Source of the DNA: Bacilli bacterium
Lineage (GTDB): Bacteria > Bacillota_I > Bacilli_A > RF39 > UBA660
Direction: 5' to 3'
NCBI GenBank assembly: GCA_051872635.1
Contig: JBJEEA010000004.1
Span: 12,739-76,738, forward strand
DNA: 64,000 nt
A program made the position numbers and the translations under genes. Below are positions 27,137-44,252 of this stretch, piece after piece; position 1 is the stretch's first letter; each line of letters begins with the position of its first letter. Under the pieces are notes generated by a model that saw only the letters and a list, made by a program, of their open reading frames with translations, had not been told where the DNA came from and searched no databases.

Positions 27137-28236
27137 TTATTGAACTATTAGAATCTGACCGATACTAAGTAGATTAGAAGATAGGTTATTGAGCTCTTTT
27201 AATTTATCAACTGTTGTATTATATTTTCGAGCTATAGAGTAGAGACTATCACCACTTTTAACGGTATAGGTAGTTTCCAAACTAGCTTCTTTTGGTATTT
27301 TTAACACTTGGCCGATACTTAACAAGTTGGATTGCAAGTTATTTTCACTTTTAATAGCATCAACAGTTGTGTTATATTCCCTAGCAATGGAATATAAGGA
27401 ATCTCCACTTTTTACCGTATAAGTAATTGTTGTGGTAGTTTCACTAGCAGTAGGTAATTTTAGTACTTGACCGATGGATAAAATATTACTAGTAAGATTA
27501 TTTGCTTCTTTTAAGGCATCAACAGTTGTGTTGAATTTTTTAGAAATTGAATAGAGAGAATCGCCTTTTTGAACAGTATATGTTTCTTCTGGAATTAAAG
27601 GGCTTTGCAATTTAAGTAACTGTCCAATTTGAAGAGTATTGCTAGTGAGATTATTTAATTCTTTTATAGTATCAACAGTTGTATTGTTGTCTCTAGCTAT
27701 GGAATATAAAGTATCTCCGGCTTTTACGATATAAATATTTTCTTCTCCCTCATAGACTTCTTCAGTAGGTATTTTTAGTACTTGACCGATACTGAGTGAT
27801 GAACTAGTTAAATTATTTAATTTAGTTAGCTCTTGTACTGTAGTTCCAAGTTTATTGGCAATGCTATATAGGGTATCACCCTTTTGGACGATATAGGTAT
27901 TAGATGTTATTCCTTCAGGAGAAGTGTATGGGACACCAGCATAATTTGCTACTGCTGAAATTACAGCCTCTGCTAGTTGTTGGTAGTTATTATTTAGAAA
28001 ATTTACATCTTTGGCATTATCAATAAAACCATATTCGACAATTATTGGTTGAGTATTACCAGTATTTCTATGTATAAAGTAGTAATCTTTAGAAGTATCA
28101 CTAGGAAGTCTTCTCTGATAGTATTTTCTGGTAGTCTGTCCTGTAGCGCCAATATTGTTTAGGACGTTTTTGGCGAGGGTATCTGAATTTCTAAGGGCAT
28201 AGATTACTTCAGCACCTTCGCCACCTCCGGAGTTTA
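27137..28236 (-). CDS. 3' part of split N-acetylmuramoyl-L-alanine amidase (Amidase_3 C-terminal half + 5 LysM domains)
   Basis: Manual translation from 28235: NSGGGEGAEVIYALRNSDTLAKNVL...IIVEYGFIDNAKD... then five LysM repeats (YIVQKGD, YIVKAGD, YTVQKGD, YTVKSGD x2). No stops. The first in-frame start codon is TTG 27610 and an in-frame TAA lies just upstream of the junction. Confidence 0.93.
28221..28236. repeat. attR core: 16-bp direct repeat CCACCTCCGGAGTTTA
   Basis: Identical to 40693-40708. Confidence 0.95.
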
Positions 28237-28299: not shown

Positions 28300-29703
28300 T
28301 TATATCATTATATTGCATCTAAACAATTCGTTAATTACATGTTTTATTTTATCATCATCTACTCCATAATACTTAAGTTGCATAATATATATAACATATT
28401 CTAAATAAATTAAATCAAGTAAAGATAATCCTATAAATTCTTGATCTATGTCTCCGTGTGCAAAATGATTTCTTTGCGTTGATAATCTATTTCCCATTTT
28501 AGTATAATTTAGTTTTTCACCATTTAAACTATATAAGTGATTACCAAATATATCAGAAATATCACTATAATCTTTCCCATATTGAACTATACTAGATTTT
28601 AAACTATCTGTTTTTATTAATTTTTTCAAAAACTTAAATATTTCTTTCGTCTTTCCAGAATTATTATTTATTAAATTTTCAATTTTGTTTGTTACATTTT
28701 GTTCAGCTATTATCGTTTTTTCACTTTTTTTAATACCGTTAGGATAATTTCTTTTAAATTCCCATTCAAATCCAGCTGTTATCATCACAAATCTTCCTGC
28801 ATTAATTCTTCTTCCAGATTCATATGTATCTGGGATATGTTCAAAATAAATACTTTTACTGTTTATGTCATTCATAATATTACCCATAGCACCTTTTATA
28901 TATTCATATTTTATAAATTTACCTTTTTCTAATGGATACAATTCTACATCACTTTCGTTATCTTCGCTTTTATACAACGTTGCAAAATGTTGATGTAACC
29001 CATTATCGGCCGGAGCAGATATTTCAACACTCGTAAAAATAATATTTCTTCTATAACACAAATATTGTACAAATTTCTTTGTTAATTCCAGTAATTTAAT
29101 AATAAATTCATAATTATTAGTAGGTTCAAACTCTAAATATAAAGTAGAATTCATATTTAAAGGGGCTTCTCCTATTTTATAACTACTAGATATAGAAATA
29201 CCGAAATACATATAAATTTCCGTATCATCTATTTTAAACATTTCTTTATCAGTTGTAGTTTCTCTAAATGGGCGCGTATCAACACCTAAAGTTCCATCTT
29301 CTCCCCACTTTAATTTATTTAATGCTATAGTCGTTGGATATATATAATTTATTTCTGGTCCTTTGATAGCAATTCTGTCTATTGTTTCTTTTCTTAATTT
29401 ATTTATTATAAAATATTTCACATTAACTATCAGTACAGAATTTATTCTTCCAACATCGTATGTATCTGGAATAAAAATAATATTGTTTCCAGTTTCATTA
29501 CATGTCCCAACTAAAGTTTCCTCAATATACAAAGGTTCACCTAAAGTGTATATACCTGTTTCTAATTTCTTCATAAACCATCGTTCAATCGTTTCTTTTT
29601 CTTCTTTTGGCGGTATTAATTTCAATTTTTTCTTATCAAACACAAAAGTAAAATCTATATCTCTATATTTTAAACTTCCAGTATAAATTTCTAATTCTTT
29701 CAT
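28300..29703 (-). CDS. ApeA-like N-terminal domain + HEPN RNase protein
   Basis: C-terminal RLSTQRNHFAHGD (R-x4-H HEPN motif) after a ~300-aa beta-rich N-terminal region; architecture resembles ApeA-type proteins. Confidence 0.7.
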   Translation of the reverse strand: MKELEIYTGSLKYRDIDFTFVFDKKKLKLIPPKEEKETIERWFMKKLETGIYTLGEPLYIEETLVGTCNETGNNIIFIPDTYDVGRINSVLIVNVKYFIINKLRKETIDRIAIKGPEINYIYPTTIALNKLKWGEDGTLGVDTRPFRETTTDKEMFKIDDTEIYMYFGISISSSYKIGEAPLNMNSTLYLEFEPTNNYEFIIKLLELTKKFVQYLCYRRNIIFTSVEISAPADNGLHQHFATLYKSEDNESDVELYPLEKGKFIKYEYIKGAMGNIMNDINSKSIYFEHIPDTYESGRRINAGRFVMITAGFEWEFKRNYPNGIKKSEKTIIAEQNVTNKIENLINNNSGKTKEIFKFLKKLIKTDSLKSSIVQYGKDYSDISDIFGNHLYSLNGEKLNYTKMGNRLSTQRNHFAHGDIDQEFIGLSLLDLIYLEYVIYIMQLKYYGVDDDKIKHVINELFRCNIMI

Positions 29704-29735: not shown

Positions 29736-31397
29736 TTAATCTTTCTTTTTGCCAATTCTTCCATAATGATTTCTAACTAAATTCCTATTTTCATATATAA
29801 AATTAATTTTTGGTATTACATTATACTTAAACATAATGGTTATATTTCTATTTTCATCAATTACTATTTTATCTATTAATGTATTAATTAATTCTTTTTT
29901 AGTTTTCTTTAAATCTAACAGCTCTTTTATCTTTTTAGTATAATCTGGTAGTATATTTGTTTTATTCTTTATATTTTGTTTTTTTAATTTTTCTTCTTCT
30001 ATTATGCTATTAATTTTTTTGAGTTTAATTTCTGATTCTGTAGATAATTCTTTATATAATTGAGTCGAAATAACATTATTATATCTATCATTATATAATG
30101 TTGATAATTTATTCATGATTTGTTCTTTTTCTTTTAATAAATCATTTATTTTTTTATCTATATCTTCTGTTTCTCTATGAACATTTTTTTGTACTTCTTT
30201 ATTTAATTCTTCTACATCTAACTCTTTTATAAATGTTGATACTGAATTATTAAATTGTTCTAGTATTTGTTCTTCTAAATAATCATATGGATAAAAATGT
30301 GAACTACATCTTCCTCTCTTTGGATCTCTAGAATATTTATTACAATTAATTGACCAGTAATCAAGTTTCTTTCTGTAATAAACAGATAATCTATTACCAC
30401 ACTCTTTACAAAATATTTTACCTTCTAAAATTCTTTTTGGTCTTTCTGTTTTTAAACTATAATTTCTAGTTTTTCTTTTTCCTAAAGATTTAATATATTT
30501 AAAAGTTTCTTTATCCACTAAAGGTTCATGAGTATCTTCAACTATTACCCATAAACTTTCATCTAAAGTTATTTTCTTCTTTGATTTATAATTTACTTTT
30601 GTTTGAGTGTGCTGAACCATATCGCCAGTATAAATTCTATTACTTAAAATTTTCTTTACTGTTGATATATTCCAACTATCTCTATCAATCAATCTAGAAG
30701 AATAATTAGTTTTCTTATATCCTGCTGGTGTAGGTGCATTCATATCATTTAATCTTGTTGCTATTTCTGTTGGTCCTATTCCCTCTGCTCTCCAATTAAA
30801 TATTTTTTTTACAATTGGTGCAGTTTCTAGATTAGGTATTAAATGTCCTTTATCTAATGGATCTCTCATATAACCATAACATGGCTGACTTCCTATAAAT
30901 TTACCATTCTTTCTTTTATCATTTAATACATTTCTTATCTTTATAGAATTTTGTTTACTATAATAATCATTACAAGCAATTATAAATGTTGAAGAATCAT
31001 TACTAGCTTGATTTTTAAAACTATCATATGATTCAAGTATAGATATAAATCTTATATTATTCTCAGGAAAAAATGTTTCAATATAATACCCTGTCATAAC
31101 ATGATCTCTACCAAATCTAGATAAATCTTTAACAACTACGCAATTAATCTTTTTTTGTTTTATATCTTCTAACATTTTTTGAAATCCAGGTCTATCAAAA
31201 TTAGTTCCAGAATATCCATCATCTATATATTCTCCACACAGATTAAAATTATTATTTTTAACATAACTTCTTAGTAATTCTTTTTGATTAATAACACTTT
31301 CACTATCAGATTCATATTTTTTATCTTTATCTTCTTGAGATAATCTTATATAGATTCCAACATTGAAATCCATTTCAGTTAAGTAAGTATTATACAT
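29736..31397 (-). CDS. Large serine recombinase (resolvase + recombinase + Zn-ribbon + coiled coil)
   Basis: GIYIRLSQED (catalytic Ser), DDGYSGTNFDRPGF, VVKDLSRFGR, PCYGY, and Zn ribbon CKECG...CNKY...C. Confidence 0.96.
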   Translation of the reverse strand: MYNTYLTEMDFNVGIYIRLSQEDKDKKYESDSESVINQKELLRSYVKNNNFNLCGEYIDDGYSGTNFDRPGFQKMLEDIKQKKINCVVVKDLSRFGRDHVMTGYYIETFFPENNIRFISILESYDSFKNQASNDSSTFIIACNDYYSKQNSIKIRNVLNDKRKNGKFIGSQPCYGYMRDPLDKGHLIPNLETAPIVKKIFNWRAEGIGPTEIATRLNDMNAPTPAGYKKTNYSSRLIDRDSWNISTVKKILSNRIYTGDMVQHTQTKVNYKSKKKITLDESLWVIVEDTHEPLVDKETFKYIKSLGKRKTRNYSLKTERPKRILEGKIFCKECGNRLSVYYRKKLDYWSINCNKYSRDPKRGRCSSHFYPYDYLEEQILEQFNNSVSTFIKELDVEELNKEVQKNVHRETEDIDKKINDLLKEKEQIMNKLSTLYNDRYNNVISTQLYKELSTESEIKLKKINSIIEEEKLKKQNIKNKTNILPDYTKKIKELLDLKKTKKELINTLIDKIVIDENRNITIMFKYNVIPKINFIYENRNLVRNHYGRIGKKKD

Positions 31398-31466
31398 TCA
31401 ATCCTCCTTTTCTTCTTACTTGACTGAGTATTAAGACAATTTAATAATACCGCATTATTAAAAAAA

Positions 31467-31550
31467 TTACAGCGCATTATTTTCTTTTTCTATCTCTTCG
31501 ATAAGATATTTTAAAATAAGATCTTTAAAAGTTATATTATTTTCATTCAT
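31467..31550 (-). CDS. 27-aa micro-ORF upstream of the recombinase
   Basis: Manual: MNENNITFKDLILKYLIEEIEKENNAL*, preceded by AGGTG RBS. Confidence 0.5.
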   Translation of the reverse strand: MNENNITFKDLILKYLIEEIEKENNAL

Positions 31551-31664
31551 AGCAACACCTACTTAAAGTTATGTTGTTTTTATTTATTTTATTATTGTTT
31601 AAATCCATTTTATATTCCCCCTTTTATTCAATAAAAAAATCCCTATATTATTTTGATATAAGGA

Positions 31665-31832
31665 TTATTCTTCGTTTATAACTGAATCAATATTTTTTAT
31701 AATATATTCTATTAATAAAGTTTCCATTATAGATTGTATTGTAACTTTTTTGTTTTCTATCACTCTTTTAAGAGCCATTTTTTTATGGTCGTCAATTCTA
31801 AATTTAACTTGATTATTTTTTGCTAAAGCCAT
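31665..31832 (-). CDS. 55-aa ribbon-helix-helix-like DNA-binding protein
   Basis: Manual: MALAKNNQVKFRIDDHKKMALKRVIENKKVTIQSIMETLLIEYIIKNIDSVINEE*; RBS GAGAGGAG; beta-strand VKFRID followed by two helices. Confidence 0.65.
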   Translation of the reverse strand: MALAKNNQVKFRIDDHKKMALKRVIENKKVTIQSIMETLLIEYIIKNIDSVINEE

Positions 31833-32185: not shown

Positions 32186-32258
32186 AAAAAAAAGCACTGA
32201 CCTTTTCTGTAAGATCAATGCCATAAATACATCTAATTGCATTATTATTTCATATTCT
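32186..32258 (-). ncRNA. Candidate ~70-nt small RNA or attenuated leader inside the element
   Basis: TTGACT-N16-TACAAT promoter with TG extension (32264-32291), then GCATTGATCTT/AAGGTCAGTGC hairpin + T8; no ORF within. Confidence 0.35.
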
Positions 32259-32426
32259 ACTATATTGTATCACATGATTGTTGAAAGTCAATTAGTAATT
32301 AATGTCGTATCTATATGGATAAAAATGTTGTACAAAATCTTTCTAAACACTTATAAATACTACATTTCAGTAAATAGATACTTTAATAGTTTTTATATTA
32401 TCGACACATATATATAAATTTTTTAA

Positions 32427-33392
32427 TTATTTTTTAAATACAAGTTCCCTATGATAATATAAATATGCTTCACGCCCCTCGGTAGGAAGCATTCTTATTT
32501 TTTTGCCATTAAATATATCGAGTCTTTTTTGATTCATCGGTGAAATCCAAGGGGATACTAACATAGTTCCATCATTTTCAAAAGATATAAAACCTCTATC
32601 AAATAATTTATCATATGTTGGAGTTAACATAAATCCATTTTTTGGATCCGTCTTTTCAAAATTAGTAGATTTAGCCCACGGTTTTATATGAGATGCTATT
32701 AATAATCTTTCATCATTTACCATTGTTATTGGACAATAAGGACATTCATCTAATAATTTTTCTCTATATTTTCCTTGTCCAACACGAGATTTAATAATAC
32801 TTTCTCTTTCTGATGTAGTAATGTTTTCATCTTCTTCAATTTCAGCAATTTCTTCTTCATACAATAATTCTTTATTATATTCTACAAAAGGTCTAAAATA
32901 ATATAATAACTCTTCATCCTTCTGTAATTTTAAAATAGCCACATAAGAGATGTTAGGCAAAGAAATTTCTCTAATTAAATCATATGCAAGAGAGCGTGAA
33001 TTAATATAAATTCTAGGTGGTTTAACGTCTACCCTATAAATATTAAAATATAAAAAATCTTCCTCAAGATTATAAATTTTGTCATAATGATTAGAGAAAA
33101 TTTGAGGCATATTCGCTTTGTTTCTATATTCTTGATCAGGTCTTTTATATTCGTTTTCACTATCCATTAAATAACTAATTAAATCCTCTTTTTTTATAAC
33201 ACATTTTCCATCAAAATTTTCAAAGAAATCTAAAGTAGAACCATCTGTAGTTTGACCGACATAAAGTTTTGCTTCTCCATGGCCTGTACCGATTTTATTT
33301 GAATCTTTTACAAAACAATCAGGAATAGTAATACATTCTTTAGCGTCCAACACATTATATTCTGCTCCATCAATAATTATTTTATTATTCAT
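32427..33392 (-). CDS. HNH endonuclease (putative restriction enzyme)
   Basis: SRVGQGKYR..LL...CPIT...LIASHIKPW...NGFMLTPTYDKLFDRGFISF; overlaps the end of the methylase gene. Confidence 0.88.
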   Translation of the reverse strand: MNNKIIIDGAEYNVLDAKECITIPDCFVKDSNKIGTGHGEAKLYVGQTTDGSTLDFFENFDGKCVIKKEDLISYLMDSENEYKRPDQEYRNKANMPQIFSNHYDKIYNLEEDFLYFNIYRVDVKPPRIYINSRSLAYDLIREISLPNISYVAILKLQKDEELLYYFRPFVEYNKELLYEEEIAEIEEDENITTSERESIIKSRVGQGKYREKLLDECPYCPITMVNDERLLIASHIKPWAKSTNFEKTDPKNGFMLTPTYDKLFDRGFISFENDGTMLVSPWISPMNQKRLDIFNGKKIRMLPTEGREAYLYYHRELVFKK

Positions 33393-34599
33393 TTTCTTCA
33401 CCACCAAACATTGAAAGATCTAATTGTTTTAGTATCTCAATGAAATTATTAGATACAATACTATTACCAGCTTGTTTATACATCTGTGTATCACTAACAA
33501 CAATTTTAAATCTATCATCAAACCCCATTAATCTTAAGCACTCCCTAGGAGTCAACTTTCTAATTCTATTGTCTTTAGATATATAGTTATCAACACCTGC
33601 TCGATGCATTTTTCCCATTGTAGATAATAATGGTCTAGCTATATCTAAATCTATTTCGGGTTTAGAATAAAAATTTTTAGTCCCAGTTTTCATCACATAC
33701 TCTGTAACCTTATCTGATAAAAAATATTTATTATCAACTTCTTTTGGTCCTTCACAAATAAAATCACCATGCCAATTAAATTGTTGATTTGCTTTTTCAC
33801 ATAAAGCAATATCTCCATTAATTTGAGTAAATCTTTTTTGTAAATTTTTTTGATTTGTAACAAATGCTATCCCCTTATCATTCAAATAATATTTGGAATC
33901 TGGATTATCTTCTAATAAATCCTTCATAGTAATATCTAATTTCATAGGTTTAGGGAACGAAAATTTCACAGAATGATCCTTAAATCCTATAACAAATAAT
34001 CTTTCTCTATTTTGAGGTATACCATAATCTTTAGAATTCATTATTTGCTTATGTATTTTATATCCAAGTTTTTCAAATTCTTTTTGTATTTTCTCCCAAG
34101 TTTTACCACCATCATGATTTAATAGACCTTTTACATTCTCATATATAAACACTTTTGGTTTAATTTCATCTACTAATCTACAAAATTGAAATATAAGTAA
34201 TCCTCTAGCATCTTCTAGTCCTTTTCTCTTTCCAACCATAGAAAAAGATTGACATGGGCTACCACCAACAAATAAATCAACTTTATCTTTATAATCTGTA
34301 CCATCTAGTAATTTTATATCTAAATGAAAATCATCTTCATTTAGATCATAATTTGCCATATAACTTTTTTTTACATAATTTTGCTTTGAACTTTGTGATG
34401 AATATAATTCATCTACATACTTTTTTTTCTCTAGTTTAGATTTCATTTTCTTTATTTTATTTAATTCTTTTTCTTCATCATATTCAACAGGAATATCCCC
34501 ATTATCACAAGCAAATACAATTTGATGTGGAATTTCTAATCTATCTAAAGCATGTTCTATAGAACCAATGCCACTAAATACTGTTGCTACACGTATCAT
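33385..34599 (-). CDS. DNA (cytosine-5)-methyltransferase
   Basis: FSGIG (motif I), GGSPCQSFS (IV), ENVKG (VI), PQNRERLFVIG (VIII), RKLTPRECLRLMGF (IX), YKQAGNSI (X). Confidence 0.95.
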   Translation of the reverse strand: MIRVATVFSGIGSIEHALDRLEIPHQIVFACDNGDIPVEYDEEKELNKIKKMKSKLEKKKYVDELYSSQSSKQNYVKKSYMANYDLNEDDFHLDIKLLDGTDYKDKVDLFVGGSPCQSFSMVGKRKGLEDARGLLIFQFCRLVDEIKPKVFIYENVKGLLNHDGGKTWEKIQKEFEKLGYKIHKQIMNSKDYGIPQNRERLFVIGFKDHSVKFSFPKPMKLDITMKDLLEDNPDSKYYLNDKGIAFVTNQKNLQKRFTQINGDIALCEKANQQFNWHGDFICEGPKEVDNKYFLSDKVTEYVMKTGTKNFYSKPEIDLDIARPLLSTMGKMHRAGVDNYISKDNRIRKLTPRECLRLMGFDDRFKIVVSDTQMYKQAGNSIVSNNFIEILKQLDLSMFGGEENE

Positions 34600-34707
34600 A
34601 ATTACCTCCTTTTAAAACAACATAAATCTATGTTGATAACTGTATAACATAATTATAACATATAAAATTTTAAAAGTCTGGCATAAATCTAAATCTTTAG
34701 CAAAATT

Positions 34708-35628
34708 TTATAATTCTTTAGGACAATTAAATTTGTATTTAACATCATTAAATCCATATACCTTTTTGCAATCATGACAAATAACAGCTATAAAATCAGC
34801 ACCATTAATTCTATGTCCATCTCCCTTTTGTATTAAAATATTTTTAGAATTACATTTAGGACAAAATACTTCTTTTCCCATCACTTCATTTTGACTATAA
34901 GCATCTCTTACTATTTCATAACCATTTCTATCATACTTAGGATAAAATTCGTCTTTATTAAATATTTTAATTCTTCCAAACATAAACTCTAATTTATCAA
35001 TTTGTTTTTCAGTATGATAATGTCCACAATACCATTTATCATAATCTATAGATTGCTCTATTTTATCTAAAAACTTTTCCATACTTTTATCTACATGAGA
35101 TTGATCAATACCTTTTATAAATACTTCGGTAGGTTCATACTTTAATGGACAAGTATGTGATAAAACAATATCGATATGTTGTCCTTTATATTTATTTAAA
35201 ATATTATCAATTTCTTCTTTGCTAAGTTGTTCATCTTTAAACCATGGATGACCATATATTATTCTATAATTTTTATCAACGGAATAAGCACCACCAATTA
35301 CTAATACTTTTTTATTATCTATATCATACAATTCGCCATTTTTAGCAAATATTAAATTCGGATATTCTTCTTCAATAAATACTTTACCACCAAACATATC
35401 AATTTCTTTATATGTTAATATATTTTCCGGTCTTTCTTCATGATTACCTTGAACACAAAATAATTTTATATCATAACTATTTAATTGTTCTTTTAACATT
35501 TTATCTCTTTCATCTAAATAGTAATTAATTCCGGCATCACCTAATATAATTAACATATTACTTTTATTTTTTTCTATATCACGTAATCTATAAAATTCTC
35601 TATGCGTATCTCCTGTAATATAAATCAT
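34708..35628 (-). CDS. Calcineurin-like metallophosphoesterase with C-terminal Zn-ribbon
   Basis: ITGDTH, ILGDAG, VQGNHE, VLSHTCP and WYCGHYH; C-terminal CPKC...CHDC; start at ATG 35628. Confidence 0.88.
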   Translation of the reverse strand: MIYITGDTHREFYRLRDIEKNKSNMLIILGDAGINYYLDERDKMLKEQLNSYDIKLFCVQGNHEERPENILTYKEIDMFGGKVFIEEEYPNLIFAKNGELYDIDNKKVLVIGGAYSVDKNYRIIYGHPWFKDEQLSKEEIDNILNKYKGQHIDIVLSHTCPLKYEPTEVFIKGIDQSHVDKSMEKFLDKIEQSIDYDKWYCGHYHTEKQIDKLEFMFGRIKIFNKDEFYPKYDRNGYEIVRDAYSQNEVMGKEVFCPKCNSKNILIQKGDGHRINGADFIAVICHDCKKVYGFNDVKYKFNCPKEL

Positions 35629-35647
35629 TTTATCAACTCCTATAATA

Positions 35648-38600
35648 CTATCTTTTATTACAATGATATATAAATAATATATTCCCAAAATTTATATATG
35701 TTTTTTTGATAATTCTTTTAATTTTTACAAAATATATTTTCATTAAAACTTTGGATTCAATTTTGTTTTTTAAATAACTTACAAAATTACATTTGGATAT
35801 TTCAAGTATTCTATACTTCAAATTTCTATCAGCTAATCCTTCTCCGTAATCTTGAATTAAATTAGCATTATACCTATAAACTTTATCAGATTCTATTATT
35901 GCTATCCCTCTAAAATTAGGGATTAATATAGACTTTAATTCATCATTTATTCTAGTTCCAGTAACTTCTTCAATAGCAGTTCTTGAAATATTCATTTCAA
36001 ACTTTAAAATGTTTTTTTCTTTATATACACAATAGTTCATGAATCCTTGATAATTTAACCTCAAAATATTTTTATACATTTTTAAAAAATCTAGTAAATA
36101 TTTTATTGAATTACCATCTGATTTTTCCAAATAAACAATTTTATTTAAATTAATTTTTTTTAATTCAAATAATTTGATTAAAATTACTTCATTAATTATG
36201 GACAAATTATTATTTTTTTTAGAATACATTAACTTTATTAAAAAATAGTTCAATAAAATGTCATTTTTATCAAATGTTGACATATCCCATATTTTATTAA
36301 ATATTTTATAGTTTGGCAATCTTGAAAAATATATATTTACAACATTTTTATAAACTTTTTCTAATTCATTATCCTCCAATAGATATTTATAAAATTTACC
36401 TGATTTTCTTCCTATGTTAGGATTTAAATCATTTACTATATATTTTTTTAAAATCAATTTCGCTTTAGTTGGAGAAATTTCTAATGCTTTTTCGTAAATT
36501 TCATCATAATACATGTTTGAAACATTTCCCAAACTTTTATAGTATATGCCCACTAAAAGTTCAACTACAAGGTCACTATTTAAACTATTGTAATTAAAAT
36601 TATTCCTATTTAAAATATTGTAAATATAATTTAATTCATATGAATTTTCAATTTTTATGAAAGAATCATATATTATCTGTGGATTATCTAACTTTTTTAA
36701 ATTTTCTATAAAATTTTCATATTCTATAGACCTACAATCTACATGACTTTCATTAATATCATTTATCATTTCAACAAATGAGTTATATTTTAAAGAATTA
36801 GTATAATATTTTTCTGAATCATAAGTATTTAAATTAGATGGTTTTTCAATATATTTTAATATGGTTTTTTTCTTTTTAAAATTTTCTTCTATTATATTAT
36901 AATTCAAATTACTATGATTAGTTTTCAAAGTTTCTAAAACATTATTTTTAATAAAGGCATACTCTCTTTTATTAGAAAATTTTATACATGCTTTCAAAGG
37001 AGTTTGATTATCAGAAAATTGATATTCAACATTCATATTCATGAATTTCCAATAATTATATATTACTTTTAATTTTCTACTTTCTTTAGTATTTATATTA
37101 TCATATAAACTATAAAATAATTCATCACAATCCCTAATATAAAAATCCAACATTTCTAATGAACTAAAAAATACATTCATCGCATCAATAGCCGACACTT
37201 TTTCAGAGTATATTTTTATTAATTCATTAGGTATAAACCATACATCTTTTGCTCTATCCATTCTATCTATCGCATTATATGCAATAATAACTAATTGCAT
37301 AAATTTATCCAAACTTATTTGATTTGATGAAATTAATTTATATAAAATATCCTTTAATTCCCAAATTTGAATATCTCTATAACTTCCATAACTAAACATG
37401 CAATTTATTATATTATCAAAATAAATCTCAAAATTGTAACCGGAAATTAAACCCAAAATATAATTAGTTAAGTTATTCTCAAATTCTGATATATTACTCT
37501 GTTGATATTCAGTAGTTATTAATAAAGACTTTAAACAAGTTTCTGATAAAATTACTGAATACTGTTTAACATTACTGATTATTTGTGAATAAATAGTACC
37601 TAATAGAGAAACAATTCCATCATGATAGTTTTTTCCATTTCTTTCATTTAATATTTTTTGTTTAAAATGCATAAATTCTTCTATGATAAAATCTTTATTC
37701 TTACTTAAAACTATTAATCTACCAAGAAAATTTAATTCATCATTACTATATGCAGTGATATACCCTTCAAAATTCAATTTGTCAAAATTATAATTATTAA
37801 AAATTTTAATAAAATCTTCATCATTAGAATCATCTTTAATTAATAACTGTATAAACTCACATATAAACTTATATACCAATGGTGCTCCTGAAAAATAATC
37901 ATTCCAAGAAGAAATTATTGTATCTATAGTTTCTAAATCATTATTAAAAACATAGTTAATAAGTAATAATAAATTTTTGGTGGAAGAAATATATATTTCT
38001 TCAGTTATTATGTTATTTAATTCTTCTGTACTATATTTTTTTGTTATAGGAATAAGTATATTTTTTTCATAAAATATTTTAATAAAGTTATCACTTTTTC
38101 TTTTTAATAAATCATCTACAATTTTATATATTTTAGAATTAACATCCATGTTATTATTCGTTGATGATAAATCTAATATATTTTTATATTTCAAATATTC
38201 AAAAATAAGTATAATGCTATCTGGTGAATTTATAACATTTAACCTATTAATTTTTAATATTTTATTTTTTTCATAACTATTAAAATACTGATTGATAATT
38301 TCTTCATAATTCATTTCAAACTTGTTTCTTAAAAGAAAAACAATTATTTTTTGCATATATTCCCACTGTTGTTCAAAATTAGAATATTTAGAAAATCTTT
38401 TACTATAAATTAATTTTCTTATCAAATCATATTTTCCCAAATAAAATAACATATATATATAATTTTCAAATATATTTATATCAAAGTCATAGATGAAGGT
38501 ACTATAAATATCATGAAAATGTTCAAAATAATATAGCATTTGAAAATCTTGCTTTATTTGATAAATTTTATAATTATTTGATATAAAAGTATATACTTCA

Positions 38601-40504
38601 TTTTCAGAATAACCATTATTTATAATTGCTAACTTAATTTTTTCATAATCAAAATATTCATTATATTCTTCAATTTTATTTTTTTCTAATACTAATGAAG
38701 GATAATAATTAAATTTTTTTGGATTCATATACAAATCTTTTACTTTAAACCATCTCAAAACGTCATTTAATAGTTTATCTATATTTACTTTTTCAAATTC
38801 TAAAATATATCTTCTTAAACTTTCATGGAAAATAATATATTCATCTTTTTCATTCTTTAATAAGACATTTATAATACACTTAAATTCTTTTTCTATTTCA
38901 CTCTTTGAAACAGATGATATTTCATGTAATTCATTTATTGAAATTGGAAATTTAATAAGCGAAAAGTATAAATAAATATGAAATTGTTGTCCTTTAAAAA
39001 TTAAATCATAATACTCATTTAAATTTGTAATATTTTTTTCAAATACATTACCATTTATTATATAGTCAATTAACATATATTTTAATAATAATGGATTCCC
39101 ACTACTTTTTTCAAAAAAATCAATTTTATCTAAATCATCCAAATCGAAATTATAATTTTCAGAATATAATTTTACAAGTTCCTGAACTTGTAATTTATTT
39201 AAGTTACCTAATTCATATTTATTTTTTATGGGCATATTGTCTAATACTTGTGACAAAACAACAATTTTTATTTGTGGATTATTATTAGAAAACATTATTA
39301 TCTCATTTAATAATTCGTTAAGTTGAATATTGCTTGTTGATCTCTCACGCACAATATGATCTAATCCATCAATTATTATATAATGTTCATGTTTATCATC
39401 AATTAAGGTCAAATCACTCATTTTAAGATTAAATAAATTTATATTATAACCATGAAGCTTTTGTAAATTATAATTAAATGTAGTTATAAAACAATATTTA
39501 TTTAATCTAGTTTCAGCATATTCATCATCTAAATTAAAATAAAAATAATATGAACTGTTTTTTATATTTATACTTTCTAAATATTCTGAAAACTCTTTGG
39601 AAAACCAACTTTTTCCAACACCAGGCGCACCATAAACATGAAGTAAATTATTATCTTTTAACATTTCTAAAATATTTTCAATGTCTTGTTTTCTAGAAAT
39701 ATATTTATCTTTATCAATAATTAATTCATTATTAATTGGTATTGTATAATTAAATAATTTTATATTATTTAACCATTTTTCAGCTATTTCAGCAATTTTA
39801 ATCTTCTTATAATCATCTTCCGCTCTATATTCTCTAATTGTTTCTAACATATCTTTATAGATTACAGTTACAGGAATATTTGATATATCTCCAATGGCAT
39901 TTTCTATTTGCTCTATTACCACTTCTTTAATACTATTATCAACAACAGAATTACTGGTTATCTCAAAAGTAAAATTTTCTAAAAAATGTCTAATATCTTC
40001 TTTAGACAAATCTGAATAATCAATTTTTGAGTTTGGATTTTTTGATATCCTTTTTTCAAAAAAAAGTTCTATCATTTCTTTATTAATATTAAATTTATAT
40101 CTATTAGAATCTTTAAAAAATGATTCATCCTCAATTTTTGTAATCCATTTAGAAAGTTCATCCGATATATTCATTTCTTTCAAACTAATAATAAGACATA
40201 ATTCACTATCTTTATTATTTTTGTGACTTTTAACAAATTGATAAATGCTAAAATCTCCACTATAATTTGAAAAGTCATTCAAGTCTAATATTGTTTTCAT
40301 TTCCCTATATTTTATCTGAATTTCCTTAATATTGTCATTATTAATTATTTTCAAATCATCGAATTTATCAAAATTATTTTTCTTTTTATCTAGCACAACT
40401 TCCGTTAATACTTCATTACCACATAATAATTTATAAATTTCTCTAAATATAATATAAGACGTAAATGCATCTTGAAATATATATCCTCTTTCTTTATAAT
40501 TCAT
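35648..40504 (-). CDS. Nuclease-STAND (NACHT-like) ATPase, Avs-like candidate
   Basis: N-terminal GYIFQD...FDDL...EIQIK (PD-(D/E)xK, Cap4-like); Walker A YGAPGVGKS; Walker B IIIDGLDH; SSGNPLLLKY; over 1000 aa of helical C-terminal region. Confidence 0.78.
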   Translation of the reverse strand: MNYKERGYIFQDAFTSYIIFREIYKLLCGNEVLTEVVLDKKKNNFDKFDDLKIINNDNIKEIQIKYREMKTILDLNDFSNYSGDFSIYQFVKSHKNNKDSELCLIISLKEMNISDELSKWITKIEDESFFKDSNRYKFNINKEMIELFFEKRISKNPNSKIDYSDLSKEDIRHFLENFTFEITSNSVVDNSIKEVVIEQIENAIGDISNIPVTVIYKDMLETIREYRAEDDYKKIKIAEIAEKWLNNIKLFNYTIPINNELIIDKDKYISRKQDIENILEMLKDNNLLHVYGAPGVGKSWFSKEFSEYLESINIKNSSYYFYFNLDDEYAETRLNKYCFITTFNYNLQKLHGYNINLFNLKMSDLTLIDDKHEHYIIIDGLDHIVRERSTSNIQLNELLNEIIMFSNNNPQIKIVVLSQVLDNMPIKNKYELGNLNKLQVQELVKLYSENYNFDLDDLDKIDFFEKSSGNPLLLKYMLIDYIINGNVFEKNITNLNEYYDLIFKGQQFHIYLYFSLIKFPISINELHEISSVSKSEIEKEFKCIINVLLKNEKDEYIIFHESLRRYILEFEKVNIDKLLNDVLRWFKVKDLYMNPKKFNYYPSLVLEKNKIEEYNEYFDYEKIKLAIINNGYSENEVYTFISNNYKIYQIKQDFQMLYYFEHFHDIYSTFIYDFDINIFENYIYMLFYLGKYDLIRKLIYSKRFSKYSNFEQQWEYMQKIIVFLLRNKFEMNYEEIINQYFNSYEKNKILKINRLNVINSPDSIILIFEYLKYKNILDLSSTNNNMDVNSKIYKIVDDLLKRKSDNFIKIFYEKNILIPITKKYSTEELNNIITEEIYISSTKNLLLLINYVFNNDLETIDTIISSWNDYFSGAPLVYKFICEFIQLLIKDDSNDEDFIKIFNNYNFDKLNFEGYITAYSNDELNFLGRLIVLSKNKDFIIEEFMHFKQKILNERNGKNYHDGIVSLLGTIYSQIISNVKQYSVILSETCLKSLLITTEYQQSNISEFENNLTNYILGLISGYNFEIYFDNIINCMFSYGSYRDIQIWELKDILYKLISSNQISLDKFMQLVIIAYNAIDRMDRAKDVWFIPNELIKIYSEKVSAIDAMNVFFSSLEMLDFYIRDCDELFYSLYDNINTKESRKLKVIYNYWKFMNMNVEYQFSDNQTPLKACIKFSNKREYAFIKNNVLETLKTNHSNLNYNIIEENFKKKKTILKYIEKPSNLNTYDSEKYYTNSLKYNSFVEMINDINESHVDCRSIEYENFIENLKKLDNPQIIYDSFIKIENSYELNYIYNILNRNNFNYNSLNSDLVVELLVGIYYKSLGNVSNMYYDEIYEKALEISPTKAKLILKKYIVNDLNPNIGRKSGKFYKYLLEDNELEKVYKNVVNIYFSRLPNYKIFNKIWDMSTFDKNDILLNYFLIKLMYSKKNNNLSIINEVILIKLFELKKINLNKIVYLEKSDGNSIKYLLDFLKMYKNILRLNYQGFMNYCVYKEKNILKFEMNISRTAIEEVTGTRINDELKSILIPNFRGIAIIESDKVYRYNANLIQDYGEGLADRNLKYRILEISKCNFVSYLKNKIESKVLMKIYFVKIKRIIKKTYINFGNILFIYHCNKR

Positions 40505-40652
40505 AAACAATCACCACTACTTCTAAAAAAGAGCAATATTAACCCTAAATCCAAGATTAAATACTGCTCATCTCTTTTATAATTATAACATATATTCCCA
40601 CTGTTTTTTAATTTTATCTATATTTTATAAACAAAACTTAAATTTACTCATC

Positions 40653-40976
40653 TTAATACCCAATCAAATCTTTGTAGTGGTAACTGAACTCCCCACCTCC
40701 GGAGTTTACGTGATTAGATATTACTATCACATCACTAGAGTTACCAAACTTTGATAAGATACTATTTACCCTATCTGTGGGAGATAAAGTTATATCTTCT
40801 TCTCTTGTTATAGCAACTGGCACGCCTAGTTCTTTAAATCTATCATACATATATTTTGATATTAATAAATTATAATCTTTTTCTAGCATGTTATTACCTA
40901 CTGCTCCTGAATCAGTTCCACCATGTCCTGGATCTATAACTACTTTTTTTGTTGCTCTATCTTCATTATTATTCAT
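40653..40976 (-). CDS. 5' part of split N-acetylmuramoyl-L-alanine amidase (truncated by the element)
   Basis: MNNNEDRATKKVVIDPGHGG...LEKDYNL...TREED..LSPTDRV...ISNHVNSGGG, then 11 element-derived residues (EFSYHYKDLIG-Y*). Confidence 0.93.
   Translation of the reverse strand: MNNNEDRATKKVVIDPGHGGTDSGAVGNNMLEKDYNLLISKYMYDRFKELGVPVAITREEDITLSPTDRVNSILSKFGNSSDVIVISNHVNSGGGEFSYHYKDLIGY
40693..40708. repeat. attL core: 16-bp direct repeat CCACCTCCGGAGTTTA
   Basis: Identical to 28221-28236. Confidence 0.95.
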
Positions 40977-41056: not shown

Positions 41057-41653
41057 CTAAGATGTTTTTAATACATCATATATAATTTTTCTAATTTCTT
41101 CAATTCTATTATCAAATTCTGGATGTTCTTTAAACCATTTAATATTTAATGGTGATGGATGAGGTAGTACTATAGTTAATTTATCATTTATGTAATTATT
41201 TTTAAATATTAACTCATTAAAATTTTCTTTAGGAAAGAATACTTTAGCAACCTTAGCCCCAATTATAATATATAATTCATTATTTATATATTGTAATTCT
41301 TTTTTTAGCTATTTTTCATAGCATATTTTAGGAGGTATTCTGTCATTACCTTTTTCATCTTTACCTGGGTAACAATGTGAAAGGGCCGCTATATAAAAGT
41401 TGTTAGGATTATAAAAGATATCATCAGTTATCTTATACCACTCATATTTTAATTTTTTACCACTTTGATCAGTAAATGGTTTTAATGTTTCATGTACTGT
41501 TTTTGATGGTGCCTGACTAATTTGAACTATTTTAGAATTGATATTTCCTAAAAATATGGGATGTGGTTTAAAGCCAAATTTATCTTGACAAATAGTACAA
41601 TTTTGAATTTTATGTATTAATTTTTTAAAGTCTTTATTCATATAAGTTACCAT
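41057..41653 (-). pseudogene. Uracil-DNA-glycosylase-superfamily protein (family 4-like) with one in-frame nonsense codon
   Basis: CTICQ...ISQAP...HCYPGK...CYEK*LKKEL: TAG at 41309-41311 where Trp is expected. The frame continues to LPHPSPLNIKWF and TAG at 41057. Confidence 0.8.
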
Positions 41654-41663
41654 TTTATAATCC

Positions 41664-42065
41664 TTATATATTACCTTTCTTCCTCCACTTTGGATAATCA
41701 TAATATATTTTATTTAAATAATTTATAATGATATTTTTTTCTTTACTATTGATTTCAAAGTATTGATCTAAATTTTTTAATATGGACTCTTTAGCTCTTG
41801 ATTTTGATTCTTGTAGTTGATAAATATAATCGCAAACTATTAATTCAAATATTTCTTCTTCTTTATTTAAATCTAAATCATAATGTTTTAATAAATAGTC
41901 ATATAGGATTTCATAAGATTTTAAGTTTTTTAAGTATCTTCTATTAAAGACATCAAAATAGAATTCTTTAGGATATATTTTATATTCACCAGCTATATTA
42001 TTTATATATTCTTCTGCTTCTATTTCATCTAAAATCATTGTTGTTACATAATTAATGTCATTCAC
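41664..42065 (-). CDS. Hypothetical protein
   Basis: 133-aa ORF, coupled to the next gene. Confidence 0.6.
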   Translation of the reverse strand: MNDINYVTTMILDEIEAEEYINNIAGEYKIYPKEFYFDVFNRRYLKNLKSYEILYDYLLKHYDLDLNKEEEIFELIVCDYIYQLQESKSRAKESILKNLDQYFEINSKEKNIIINYLNKIYYDYPKWRKKGNI

Positions 42066-42137: not shown

Positions 42138-44252
42138 TTATCTTGTTTTATTATTAGAATTATTTTCTTTTTTTTCTTCTTTATTATCCAATAAATTTAT
42201 ATATTCTTTAAAATAGTCTTTTAGCTTTATATTATATTTATATAGTTCTAATAATTTTTCTTTTTTACTATCAACTAGTGTATTATTTTCCTTATCATTT
42301 TGTATTAAATTTTTATTTAACTCTGGGTCTTCATATAGTTTAATATTAATTTCTTGAAGGTGAATATAATTATCTAATTGTTTTGAAATTTCTTTAATTA
42401 ACTTTTTTTCATAATTAATAGAATAATCTATGCTATTTTGCTTATTATATCTGTATTCATTAAATATTTTTATATTATACTTTATATTATCACTATATCT
42501 TTCTAATTTTAGTATTCTTCCGGTAGTTTTTTCAGTTATCATACTAATTGGATATTCTATTCCTTCTTTTGTCCAACTGGTAATATATTCATAGTAATTT
42601 GTAGAGCATATTGTTTCACAGTAATGATAATGTTCAAATGGAATTAAGCTATTATTTTCATATTTACTAATTCTTTCTTTTTCTTCTTTCGAAGAGGCAA
42701 AACCAATTAAGCTTATATTCTCTGGAGTATTAATTTTTTCTTTGAGTATCATATTTTTATAGTTTTCTTCTTTATTATCCATTTGTCTAAAATAATATCT
42801 ATCTTCAGGTGGAAAGTTTATTAATGATTTAATTAATGATATATAATCATTAGTTATATTATTGTTTGATTCTTTTACATTATCTTCATTTAATATTTTA
42901 TCGCTCTGTTTATCTAATTTTTCTCTTTCTTTTTTAGAATATGAAACTAGAAATAAATCTGATTTCTTTTCTGTACGTAGTTCTTCTGTTTCTTTTTGTG
43001 AATTTTTAAATTCTGGGTTTGGTTGATAGTCTACGATAATGCTGTTTAGATTTTCAAATAATGAAAAGTTATAAAAACTTATATTTTTTGTTAATAATTT
43101 GTCAAATTCAATTAATGGATATGAATATCCAAAATTATTTTTGAACTTTTCTTTAAGATTATTATCCTCATCCAATTTTATTTTTGAATTTTCTACATAT
43201 TCATCTAATATATGTCGTAAAGTTTTATCTTTTGTGGAAATATTTTGATCTTCAATTATGGCTATCTTATCTTCTTGTTTGATTTGATTTATTACACTTT
43301 TTCTTGTGTTTTTGCTATTTAGTTTTTTTAAAAGTATTTCATTACGAATATATTCATATATAAAATCATTCACTTTTTCATTTTCTTTTATTAATTTGCT
43401 AATATTATTTGGATTTGAATAAAACTCTATAGTTTGACTTTTTGGAGCCATATTTGATATTTCATTTAATATTTTTTCTTCTTCAGTTAATTTTCTTTTT
43501 AAATCTTGCTCTGTTTTATATCTCCATGTTATCAACTTAATATAATTTTCTTTACTATAATCAAGTTTAAATACAGTTTTAAATCTTCTGCAAAATTCAT
43601 TTATCTGTTTTGGATTATTTGTATTATCCCAATTTATTTCTTTTAATATATCATTTATTTTTTGATTAATAATTGTTTTTTTATAAAAAGCATATAATGA
43701 TCCTTTTTCACTTGTTAAGCCTAAAAGGTGCGATAAATTACTTTTATTTATACTTAATACTTCAGTAATATTTTTGTGTAGCCCATTATTTATTGTTTGG
43801 GAAAAATCTATTCCATCAAATTCTTCATCATATATCTTTTTATTTGAATATATTAATGTCATTAAATACTCTAATTGTTCATTTGAAGGTAAAAAATTTC
43901 TACTATGTATTTTACTCTTTATTTCATCTGGAATAGTAATTTCTTTTAAGTTACTTCCATTTATTAAATAATTATAAAGTGATAAATATGTTTGAATTAC
44001 AACGTCCTTCGTCTTTTCACCCATTGTTTTATTTGACAAGGCTATAGCTACAGACTTAATTAAGAATTCTATTCTACTATCATAATCTGACATTATACTC
44101 TCATATGACTTATCTTGCTTTTCATACGAATTGATTATGCTATATAGATTTTTAAATGAATTTAATAATTTTGTGTTATACCTTTTTATATTATTATTAG
44201 TATTTATAATATTTAATATTTTATAATTTTTAAAGAATTCATTTGTATTCAT
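42138..44252 (-). CDS. Large hypothetical protein
   Basis: 704-aa ORF with GGAGG RBS; no family confidently recognised. Confidence 0.7.
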   Translation of the reverse strand: MNTNEFFKNYKILNIINTNNNIKRYNTKLLNSFKNLYSIINSYEKQDKSYESIMSDYDSRIEFLIKSVAIALSNKTMGEKTKDVVIQTYLSLYNYLINGSNLKEITIPDEIKSKIHSRNFLPSNEQLEYLMTLIYSNKKIYDEEFDGIDFSQTINNGLHKNITEVLSINKSNLSHLLGLTSEKGSLYAFYKKTIINQKINDILKEINWDNTNNPKQINEFCRRFKTVFKLDYSKENYIKLITWRYKTEQDLKRKLTEEEKILNEISNMAPKSQTIEFYSNPNNISKLIKENEKVNDFIYEYIRNEILLKKLNSKNTRKSVINQIKQEDKIAIIEDQNISTKDKTLRHILDEYVENSKIKLDEDNNLKEKFKNNFGYSYPLIEFDKLLTKNISFYNFSLFENLNSIIVDYQPNPEFKNSQKETEELRTEKKSDLFLVSYSKKEREKLDKQSDKILNEDNVKESNNNITNDYISLIKSLINFPPEDRYYFRQMDNKEENYKNMILKEKINTPENISLIGFASSKEEKERISKYENNSLIPFEHYHYCETICSTNYYEYITSWTKEGIEYPISMITEKTTGRILKLERYSDNIKYNIKIFNEYRYNKQNSIDYSINYEKKLIKEISKQLDNYIHLQEINIKLYEDPELNKNLIQNDKENNTLVDSKKEKLLELYKYNIKLKDYFKEYINLLDNKEEKKENNSNNKTR

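What the first reader, a model, noticed from the sequence alone, without database searches (positions are those of the whole stretch)
34708..40504. Nuclease-STAND ATPase tightly coupled to a Zn-ribbon metallophosphoesterase: candidate two-gene antiviral module
The ~1620-aa protein has an N-terminal PD-(D/E)xK (Cap4-like) nuclease signature, a NACHT-like P-loop and a very long helical sensor region, which is the Avs/bNACHT layout. Its stop is 19 nt from the start of a calcineurin-like phosphoesterase with all metal ligands intact and a fused CxxC...CxxC ribbon. The pair appears to be its own transcription unit. I do not recall this pairing among named Avs types. A functional link between the two is inference from adjacency.
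Basis: partly seen in the sequence, partly recalled or inferred. Interest (0 to 1): 0.68.

Follow-up and report, generated by a model that had tools for sequence, protein, structure and literature searches.

The report
Lone phage sensor beside unrelated phosphoesterase
The giant gene is a self-contained phage-sensing nuclease of the known Avs (antiviral STAND) kind. It sits in a swappable cargo slot of a mobile island, and the phosphoesterase after it is a fixed island gene found behind many different defence systems, not its partner.

Summary
A 1618-aa gene (window 35648-40504, minus strand) has a Cap4/DUF4297-type nuclease head, a NACHT-like STAND NTPase and about 1000 residues of uncharacterised tail. 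Nineteen bases downstream lies a 306-aa metallophosphoesterase (MPE) with intact motifs and a CxxC...CxxC ribbon.

- The MPE, 96-97% identical, sits in the same frame in other metagenomes (split-amidase fragment ... MPE, C5 methylase, HNH, serine recombinase).
- In those loci the STAND position is filled by Hachiman+DUF3800, SIR2-HerA, Gabija, AbiE or helicases, among others.
- None of 36 metagenome MPE loci and none of 7 other MPE-bearing relatives has the STAND.
- None of 13 STAND-homologue loci has an MPE. Their downstream genes are Fic (PDC-S72), a Zn-ribbon protein, ASCH or nothing.

DNA homology breaks within 5-47 bases of the MPE start codon.

Both genes lie in a 12,472-bp element with a large serine recombinase, flanked by a 16-bp direct repeat. 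It splits an Amidase_3-LysM gene that is intact in same-genus relatives.

Verdict: a single-gene Avs-like sensor, a new member of a known kind, lying next to an independent phage-type MPE of unknown role.

The parts
35648..40504 (-). Avs-like STAND gene (1618 aa), the cargo of slot A
   Evidence: ORF and start. 25 full-length homologues at 36-56% identity. The C-terminus aligns to the end with homologues, so the gene is full length.
39710..40504 (-). N-terminal Cap4/DUF4297/HamA-type PD-(D/E)xK nuclease domain (residues 1 to about 265)
   Evidence: AF2 pLDDT 86. Foldseek against PDB: HamA 1.3e-6, LmuA 1.7e-5 and 1.4e-4, DUF4297 1.6e-3. Invariant D39 K41 D49 D50 E61 Q63 K65. A distant relative, P0167, hits PADLOC LmuA at 6.6e-8.
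38705..39694 (-). STAND (NACHT-clade) NTPase with a weak winged-helix match (residues 271 to about 600)
   Evidence: Pfam NPHP3_N 1.4e-10; weak NACHT, nSTAND6 and HTH_TANC1. Invariant GxPGxGKS and DGxDH. A distant relative, P0213, hits PADLOC Avs1b at 2e-13 over this region.
35651..38704 (-). C-terminal region of about 1018 residues, the presumed sensor
   Evidence: No Pfam, PADLOC, NCBIfam, PHROG or PDB-sequence match. Conserved within the family. Its role as a sensor is inferred from the Avs architecture.
35629..35647 (-). 19-nt spacer with GGAG (35637-35640); right edge of variable slot A
   Evidence: Sequence. blastn homology to other loci starts at 35633/35634 (L019, L020) or 35675 (L014).
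34708..35628 (-). Zn-ribbon metallophosphoesterase (306 aa), a conserved island gene and not a STAND partner
   Evidence: Metallophos 6e-11, phrog_1649 3e-31. 6770 homologues, more than 120 of them at 84-97% identity. The same gene lies behind Hachiman, SIR2-HerA, AAA15, Gabija, AbiE, helicase and RT cargo. BFVD matches are phage metallophosphatases, best 3e-10.
35634..40552 (-). Variable cargo slot A, which holds only the STAND gene here
   Evidence: Flanks are conserved (amidase fragment and element left end 71-78%; MPE onward 92-97%) while the interior is unrelated in L014-L020. GC is 19-20% here against 24-30% around it.
32427..34599 (-). Type II R-M (C5 methylase 404 aa + HNH 326 aa), variable slot B
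   Evidence: Pfam DNA_methylase 4e-72 and HNH_2 1e-11. PADLOC MTase_II 7e-79 and HNH/REase_II. Replaced by another methylase + 374-aa protein + ASCH in L020.
29736..31832 (-). 55-aa ORF (31665-31832) and large serine recombinase (29736-31397), the conserved core of the element
   Evidence: Resolvase + Recombinase + Zn_ribbon_recom. 93-96% identical in L014 and L020. Orthologues at 48-74% identity lie beside the amidase 3' fragment in many genera.
28300..29703 (-). 467-aa protein of unknown family, variable slot C
   Evidence: No Pfam or PADLOC hit. The position holds an RVT-trypsin protein in L014 and 239-aa + 187-aa ORFs in L020.
40693..40708 (-). Left copy of the 16-bp direct repeat TAAACTCCGGAGGTGG, inside the amidase 5' fragment (40653-40976)
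   Evidence: Two exact copies in the window, 0 expected. Sequence.
28221..28236 (-). Right copy of the 16-bp repeat. The amidase 3' fragment (27137-28220) follows in frame and has no start codon before 27610.
   Evidence: Joining the flanks gives a 455-aa Amidase_3 (profile 1-173 of 174, 8e-31) + 5 LysM protein. The intact gene in same-genus relatives is up to 95% identical.

Best explanation
Two unrelated functions lie side by side.

(1) The 1618-aa protein is a complete, single-gene antiviral STAND (Avs-like) sensor.
- By analogy with SeAvs3 and SeAvs7, the long C-terminal region would bind a phage protein.
- Binding would release the NACHT-like NTPase to bind ATP and oligomerise.
- Oligomerisation would bring the N-terminal Cap4/DUF4297-type PD-(D/E)xK nuclease heads together to cut DNA and abort infection.
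- The domain identities and cargo status are shown. The trigger, oligomerisation and DNA cutting are inferred.

(2) The gene is the sole occupant of a variable cargo slot in a 12.5-kb large-serine-recombinase element. That element splits an Amidase_3-LysM gene.

(3) The Zn-ribbon metallophosphoesterase is a conserved gene of that element lineage.
- It lies at the right edge of the slot, so whatever cargo lands there ends a few bases before its start codon and is probably read through into it.
- It acts on its own. It is a phage-type, catalytically intact phosphoesterase, most likely directed at nucleic acids or nucleotides. It serves either as an independent defence or counter-defence gene or in upkeep of the element.
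- This last point is a guess, at roughly 35% for defence-related, 25% for element upkeep and the rest for something else.
For: Domains:
- NPHP3_N 1.4e-10.
- The nuclease head fold matches HamA, LmuA and DUF4297 at 1e-6 to 1e-3, probability 0.98-1.0.
- Walker and nuclease residues are invariant.
- The wider clade touches PADLOC LmuA and Avs1b.
- Cap4-STAND sensors (Avs3, Avs7) and at least 90 antiviral STAND families are described in PMC13581612.

Non-co-occurrence:
- The STAND's best homologue is only 56% identical and the family has about 25 members. The MPE has 6770 homologues, more than 120 of them at 84-97% identity.
- Near-identical MPE follows Hachiman+DUF3800 (L014-18, L059, L077, L088), SIR2-HerA (L019, L052), AAA15+DUF3892 (L020, L062), Gabija-type OLD+UvrD (L060), AbiE+helicase (L061), a helicase (L067) and an RT (L089). 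In L074 it has no cargo before it.
- 0 of 36 metagenome MPE loci have the STAND.
- In 101 genomes (the window's own genome plus 100 relatives), MPE is in 8 and the STAND only in the window's own genome.
- STAND homologues are followed by Fic (PDC-S72, 2e-79), a 416-aa Zn-ribbon protein, ASCH, distant AAA ATPases or nothing, and never by an MPE.
- The closest STAND homologues (55-56%) sit in the same slot of related elements that lack MPE.

Breakpoints: identity of 97% starts at 35675/35633, and against L020 the MPE ORF alone is conserved (35634-34706).

Element: the 16-bp repeats, restoration of the ORF on joining the flanks and empty sites in relatives.
Against: - No experiment was done. The trigger and the nuclease activity are unknown.
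- Pfam Cap4_nuclease and NACHT do not reach threshold, and PADLOC Avs and bNACHT-era models do not hit the protein itself.
- The sensor fold was not modelled.
- In this genome the two genes are probably co-transcribed: 19-nt gap and no terminator. A local, lineage-specific functional link therefore cannot be formally excluded.
- The MPE's repeated position directly behind defence cargo could mean more than a neutral anchor.
Confidence: 0.85

Rival explanations
1. One reading: the STAND and the MPE form a dedicated two-gene antiviral operon, with the MPE as a second effector or a regulator of the STAND.
For: 19-nt gap with an RBS, same strand, no terminator between them. Some Avs systems do have accessory genes, for example Avs2 with trypsin and MBL (abstract of 10.64898/2026.08.25.746987). 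The junction is seen in contigs of two bovine-gut runs, though one of these may be the source sample.
Against: No co-occurrence in either direction. The homology breakpoint lies at the MPE start codon. The same MPE lies behind at least seven mechanistically different systems.
Confidence: 0.04
2. The MPE is the recombination directionality factor of the element's large serine recombinase, moonlighting like mycobacteriophage Bxb1 gp47, which is a calcineurin-like phosphoesterase.
For: gp47 is an MPE-family RDF that is also needed for phage replication (PMC11795197; annotated as metallo-phosphoesterase in NC_002656). In the window's element lineage, MPE and recombinase are the only large conserved genes. 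Their divergence runs roughly in parallel across loci.
Against: BLASTP against gp47 is not significant (E = 0.44). Elements at the same site whose recombinases are 50-74% identical lack any MPE: G001, G037, G057, G059, G039, G055 and L001. MPE also occurs near an intact amidase (G010, L068). A conserved 55-aa ORF directly upstream of the recombinase is a more conventional RDF candidate.
Confidence: 0.1
3. The MPE is a generic helper or safety device for whichever defence cargo occupies the slot, for example by resetting a phosphorylated or nucleotide signal or limiting self-damage. It would then be functionally linked to the STAND here, but not specifically.
For: It is always immediately downstream of the cargo, with gaps of 14-62 nt. 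It is catalytically intact and under purifying selection across 53-97% identity. Other notes of this scan report the same pattern independently, though these are unchecked leads.
Against: The cargos share no common chemistry (nucleases, NADase, helicases, RT, R-M). The same cargo families and STAND homologues occur without MPE. MPE stands with no cargo before it in L074. Short forms lack the Zn ribbon.
Confidence: 0.07

Closest known systems
SeAvs3 and SeAvs7 (antiviral STAND with an N-terminal Cap4 nuclease; Gao et al. 2022, from memory; PMC13581612)
   Same: Single polypeptide with a Cap4-type PD-(D/E)xK nuclease head, a STAND NTPase and a very long C-terminal region. Lies in a defence island on a mobile element.
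   Different: No sequence-level match of this protein to PADLOC Avs1-5 models or to any PDB chain. The NTPase is of the NPHP3/NACHT clade. Sensor fold and trigger are unknown. The family is small (about 25 clusters) and comes from AT-rich gut Firmicute MAGs.
Cap4/DUF4297 effector nucleases of HerA-DUF4297, Lamassu LmuA and Hachiman HamA
   Same: The fold of residues 1-265 matches (Foldseek 1e-6 to 1e-3). An acidic ... (E/Q)xK motif is conserved.
   Different: Here the domain is fused to a STAND NTPase rather than paired with HerA, SMC or a helicase. TM-scores are only 0.3-0.5. Pfam PF14130 does not hit.
Defence hotspots of mobile elements (P2/P4 hotspots, Rousset et al. 2022; core defence hotspots in Pseudomonas, Johnson et al. 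2023; both from memory)
   Same: Conserved flanking genes frame a slot whose content is swapped among unrelated defence systems. Adjacency to the flank gene carries no functional meaning.
   Different: The carrier is a 10-13-kb large-serine-recombinase element inserted in an amidase gene. The right-hand frame gene is a Zn-ribbon MPE, and there are three slots (A, B, C).
Bxb1 gp47 (MPE-family recombination directionality factor)
   Same: Calcineurin-like phosphoesterase encoded in an element that uses a large serine recombinase.
   Different: No significant pairwise similarity. The MPE is not coupled to the recombinase clade. It has an extra C-terminal Zn ribbon.
skin, SPbeta and gin gene-intervening elements of spore formers (PMC4191935, PMC5499854, PMC5595907)
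   Same: A large serine recombinase element splits a gene. Direct repeats flank it, precise excision would restore the ORF, and the host encodes Spo0A.
   Different: Excision was not observed. The target is an Amidase_3-LysM gene. The cargo is almost entirely defence genes in exchangeable slots.

Membership tests
Avs (antiviral STAND) architecture | STAND NTPase with Walker A and Walker B | tested here: met
   NPHP3_N 1.4e-10. Invariant G292-S299 and D379/D382.
Avs (antiviral STAND) architecture | Fused N-terminal effector domain (nuclease) | tested here: met
   AF2 model plus Foldseek matches to HamA, LmuA and DUF4297.
Avs (antiviral STAND) architecture | Long C-terminal repeat or helical sensor that binds a phage protein | tested here: inconclusive
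   About 1018 residues, conserved in the family, with no match in any library. Neither the fold nor binding was tested.
Avs (antiviral STAND) architecture | Phage-triggered oligomerisation and protection | not testable with these tools
   Needs phage challenge and biochemistry.
Named Avs types 1-5 (PADLOC models) | Significant match to a type model | tested here: not met
   P0001 matches only mad8, over the P-loop, at E = 0.022. A distant clade member, P0213, hits Avs1b at 2e-13 over the NTPase only.
bNACHT (Kibby et al. 2023) | Pfam NACHT (PF05729) module | tested here: inconclusive
   NACHT scores 15.2 bits against a cut-off of 26.7. The NACHT-clade model NPHP3_N passes.
Cap4 nuclease / DUF4297 (PF14130) | Family HMM match | tested here: not met
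   No Pfam hit on residues 1-270 at E <= 1. Only fold-level similarity.
   0 of 36 metagenome loci, 0 of 13 places and 0 of 7 relatives on the MPE side; 0 of 13 loci on the STAND side.
Calcineurin-like metallophosphoesterase | Pfam match and the five metal-binding motifs (GDxH, GD, GNHE, H, GHxH) | tested here: met
   Metallophos 6e-11, above its cut-off. D7 H9 D31 N62 H63 H158 H203 H205 are invariant.
Bxb1 gp47-type RDF | Sequence relation to gp47 and strict coupling to its serine integrase | tested here: not met
   BLASTP E = 0.44. Related elements with recombinases 50-74% identical lack MPE.
Gene-intervening serine-recombinase element (skin/SPbeta type) | Direct repeats, ORF restored by precise excision, empty site in relatives | tested here: met
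Gene-intervening serine-recombinase element (skin/SPbeta type) | Developmentally timed excision | not testable with these tools
   Only the presence of Spo0A is shown. The contig-based read lay-out was too noisy to show excision joints.

The most novel reading that the evidence does not exclude
The Zn-ribbon metallophosphoesterase is a 'chassis' gene of a cargo-exchange slot. On this reading it is a conserved, phage-derived enzyme kept at the 3' edge of the slot because it does one of two things:
- it services whichever abortive-infection cargo is inserted, for example by limiting self-damage or resetting a signal; or
- it is itself an unrecognised stand-alone defence or counter-defence gene.

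Its constant position behind Hachiman, Gabija, SIR2-HerA, AbiE and Avs-like cargo would then be functional and not only a recombination anchor.
Probability: 0.12. Interest if true: 0.7.

Novelty: new member of a known kind. Interest (0 to 1): 0.3.

Why it matters
It removes a false lead. Tight spacing in a defence island can be produced by cassette exchange next to a fixed gene, and does not by itself show a functional operon.

What remains is useful in three ways.
- It is a divergent Cap4-nuclease STAND family that current defence finders miss. It comes from small-genome, AT-rich gut Firmicutes and its trigger is unknown.
- It gives a clear map of a three-slot defence-cargo platform carried on a serine-recombinase element that targets one amidase codon.
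- It singles out a widespread phage-type Zn-ribbon phosphoesterase whose role at the edge of the slot is still open.

Tried and rejected
- Two-gene module: rejected on co-occurrence and breakpoints.
- MPE as a Bxb1 gp47-like RDF: considered because MPE and recombinase are the conserved core of this lineage. Downgraded because related elements with 50-74% identical recombinases lack MPE and the similarity to gp47 is not significant.
- An AAA ATPase as STAND partner: L010 and L011 carry related AAA_15/21-type genes downstream, but at gaps of 419-1079 nt. L006's 416-aa neighbour is unrelated to them.
- Library searches on the STAND itself: PADLOC, NCBIfam and PHROGs gave nothing, and a PDB sequence profile gave only a P-loop match to ClpC.
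- MPE model against PDB: no match at E <= 1e-3 (LpxH, PP5, Vps29 and Mre11 only weakly), so no subfamily could be assigned.
- Promoter scan: no better than shuffles in this AT-rich DNA.
- Contig lay-out of four public runs: noisy at 90% likeness. It shows only that the STAND-MPE junction and STAND pieces exist in bovine and faecal metagenomes, and that small STAND pieces occur in one run labelled transcriptomic. No usable excision joint was seen.
- One Pfam call failed on a bad coordinate range.
Full report
**What is there.** Both genes lie on the minus strand.
- The large ORF starts at ATG 40504; homologues all begin MN.KERGY. It stops at TAG 35650-35648 and encodes 1618 aa.
- The next ORF starts at ATG 35628 and ends at 34708, encoding 306 aa.
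- The gap is exactly 19 nt, with GGAG 8 nt before the ATG.
- GC content drops to 19-20% over the large gene, against 24-30% nearby.

**The large protein.**
- Pfam places a NACHT-clade STAND NTPase (NPHP3_N, 1.4e-10) at residues 271-418. NACHT, nSTAND6 and TANC1 winged-helix matches are weak.
- Walker A (G292-S299) and Walker B (D379, D382) are invariant in 25 full-length homologues.
- No library matches residues 1-270 or 600-1618. A profile of the family finds no solved structure by sequence.
- An AlphaFold2 model of residues 1-280, built from nine sequences, has pLDDT 86 and pTM 0.83. Its best PDB matches are Hachiman HamA (8zue_A, 1.3e-6), Lamassu LmuA (9ux7_C, 1.7e-5; 9nxx_D, 1.4e-4) and HerA-DUF4297 (8ziq, 1.6e-3). 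These are all members of the Cap4/DUF4297/HamA group of PD-(D/E)xK effector nucleases.
- D39, K41, D49, D50, E61, Q63 and K65 are invariant.
Only the 'helical' nature of the tail is untested.
- An exhaustive search with residues 1-620 finds just 154 representatives among 1.84 billion proteins. Most are 1.85-2.05-kaa proteins aligned from residue ~5 to ~617. Among these, P0167 touches PADLOC LmuA (6.6e-8) and P0213 touches Avs1b (2e-13).
- Cap4-nuclease STAND sensors (Avs3, Avs7) and at least 90 antiviral STAND families are already described (PMC13581612).

**The small protein.**
- Pfam Metallophos scores 6e-11 and PHROG 1649 'metallo-phosphoesterase' scores 3e-31.
- All metal ligands are invariant over 14 sequences of 53-97% identity.
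- The C-terminal CxxC...CxxC ribbon is present in long forms and absent from short ones.
- Its model (pLDDT 72) gives no PDB match at E <= 1e-3. It does match phage metallophosphatases in BFVD, the best at 3e-10.
- A homologue 49% identical is an early gene of a gut Oscillospirales phage.

**Do the two genes belong together? No.**
- The two families are very unequal. The best STAND homologue is 56% identical and the family has about 25 clusters. The MPE has 6770 homologues, more than 120 of them at 84-97% identity.
- Contigs with 96-97% identical MPE keep the same frame: Amidase_3 fragment ... MPE, C5 methylase, HNH, 55-aa ORF, serine recombinase. Between the amidase fragment and the MPE they carry HamA+HamB+DUF3800 or SIR2+HerA.
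- A 90%-identical MPE follows an AAA_15/21 ATPase and DUF3892.
- In 36 further metagenome loci the upstream cargo is again Hachiman, or a Gabija-type OLD+UvrD pair, AbiE plus a helicase, a helicase, a reverse transcriptase or unknown proteins. In L074 there is no cargo at all. None has the STAND.
- Among 101 genomes (the window's own plus 100 relatives), MPE occurs in 8 and the STAND only in the window's own genome.
- Conversely, 13 loci with STAND homologues have no MPE. The downstream gene varies:
  - Fic (PADLOC PDC-S72, 2e-79), 32-44 nt after the STAND;
  - an unrelated 416-aa Zn-ribbon protein, 28 nt after;
  - ASCH, after a 516-nt gap;
  - AAA ATPases, after 419-1079 nt;
  - an opposite-strand ORF.
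- The closest STAND homologues (55-56%) sit directly after the same amidase fragment in related elements (recombinase 72% identical), with Fic and no MPE.

**Breakpoints.**
- Against L014, 97% identity runs from 35675 to 29746. Against L019 it starts at 35633.
- Against L020 only the MPE ORF itself (35634-34706, 92%) and the recombinase block (32429-29698, 93%) are conserved. Unrelated DNA lies on both sides of the MPE.
- The left frame (40942-40512) is 71-78% identical.
- So the slot interior, about 35634-40552, holds the STAND alone. The 19-nt spacing arises because the slot's right edge is the MPE start codon.
- No terminator-like site separates STAND, MPE, methylase and HNH; the only one on that strand is at 32222-32193. 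'Own transcription unit' is therefore unsupported.

**The carrier.**
- A perfect 16-bp direct repeat, TAAACTCCGGAGGTGG, lies at 40708-40693 and 28236-28221, with 0 copies expected by chance.
- The upstream 'amidase fragment' stops being amidase-like right after ...SNHVNSGGG. The frame after the right-hand repeat continues EGAEVIYALRN... and stays open for about 345 codons, with no start codon before 27610.
- Joining the flanks gives a 455-aa protein with a complete Amidase_3 domain (profile 1-173 of 174, 8e-31) and five LysM repeats.
- Many same-genus relatives have the uninterrupted gene, up to 95% identical over residues 1-198. Many genera have it split at the same residue, with an orthologous recombinase (48-74% identical) beside the 3' fragment.
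- Host flanks are 65-78% identical where the element core is 92-97% identical. This points to horizontal movement of the element.
- The element is 12,472 bp (28237-40708) and has three variable slots:
  - A: the STAND here;
  - B: a type II R-M here;
  - C: a 467-aa protein of unknown family here.
- The genome (1.25 Mb, 55 contigs) encodes Spo0A, so a skin-like reading is possible.
- This agrees with other notes of the scan, which I found only after reaching the same structure independently.

**What the MPE does.**
- I tested the idea that it is a Bxb1 gp47-like directionality factor. gp47 is a calcineurin-like phosphoesterase (PMC11795197).
- Similarity to gp47 is not significant (E = 0.44).
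- Elements at the same site with recombinases 50-74% identical have no MPE.
- MPE also occurs near an intact amidase.
- A conserved 55-aa ORF in front of the recombinase is a more ordinary candidate.
- The MPE has no constant neighbour. I read it as an independent, catalytically intact, phage-type enzyme of this island lineage whose role is open.

**Verdict.**
- The Avs-like reading is supported and the two-gene module is refuted.
- The STAND is a new, divergent member of a known kind.
- The interesting residue is the slot architecture and the recurring MPE at its edge.

Noticed in passing
window 27137-40976: A 12,472-bp large-serine-recombinase element with a 16-bp direct repeat splits an Amidase_3-LysM gene. 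Joining the flanks restores a 455-aa ORF. Intact genes and split genes at the same residue occur across many genera of the family, and the host encodes Spo0A.
   Followed up: yes
window 28300-29703 (-): A 467-aa protein with no Pfam or PADLOC match occupies variable slot C after the recombinase. Its C-terminal part contains RNHFAH, which fits the HEPN Rx4H motif by eye only. Other elements carry an RVT-trypsin fusion at this position.
   Followed up: partly
window 31665-31832 (-): A 55-aa ORF upstream of the recombinase is 93-96% conserved together with it in L014 and L020. It is not detectable in more distant elements. It is a candidate small directionality factor.
   Followed up: partly
window 41309-42065 (-): Two overlapping ORFs (133 and 130 aa) cover what is one 195-aa UDG gene in L020, so the UDG here looks frameshifted or split. 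In L020 the conserved chromosomal context upstream is rpoA-rplQ ... rplM-rpsI-Abi_2-CofD-UDG.
   Followed up: partly
window 42138-44252 (-): A 704-aa protein with no Pfam, PHROG or PADLOC match lies between an ABC-F gene and the UDG remnant, in a region that is also variable among relatives.
   Followed up: no
L060 2702-5960; L061 570-6957; L089 6640-8004: The same slot in front of the MPE holds other cargo in other metagenomes: a Gabija-type OLD+UvrD pair; AbiEii with a 188-aa partner plus a 527-aa protein of unknown family and a 902-aa SF1 helicase; or a 454-aa reverse transcriptase. A recurrent 478-aa protein of unknown family fills it in L066, L069 and L091.
   Followed up: partly
L074 468-1764; L078; L068; L065: The MPE also occurs in other positions: 120 bp after an amidase 5' fragment with a different element end, after an amidase 3' fragment, 6 kb from an intact amidase, and directly after a recombinase only 52% identical. 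Its association is with the island family, not with one position.
   Followed up: partly
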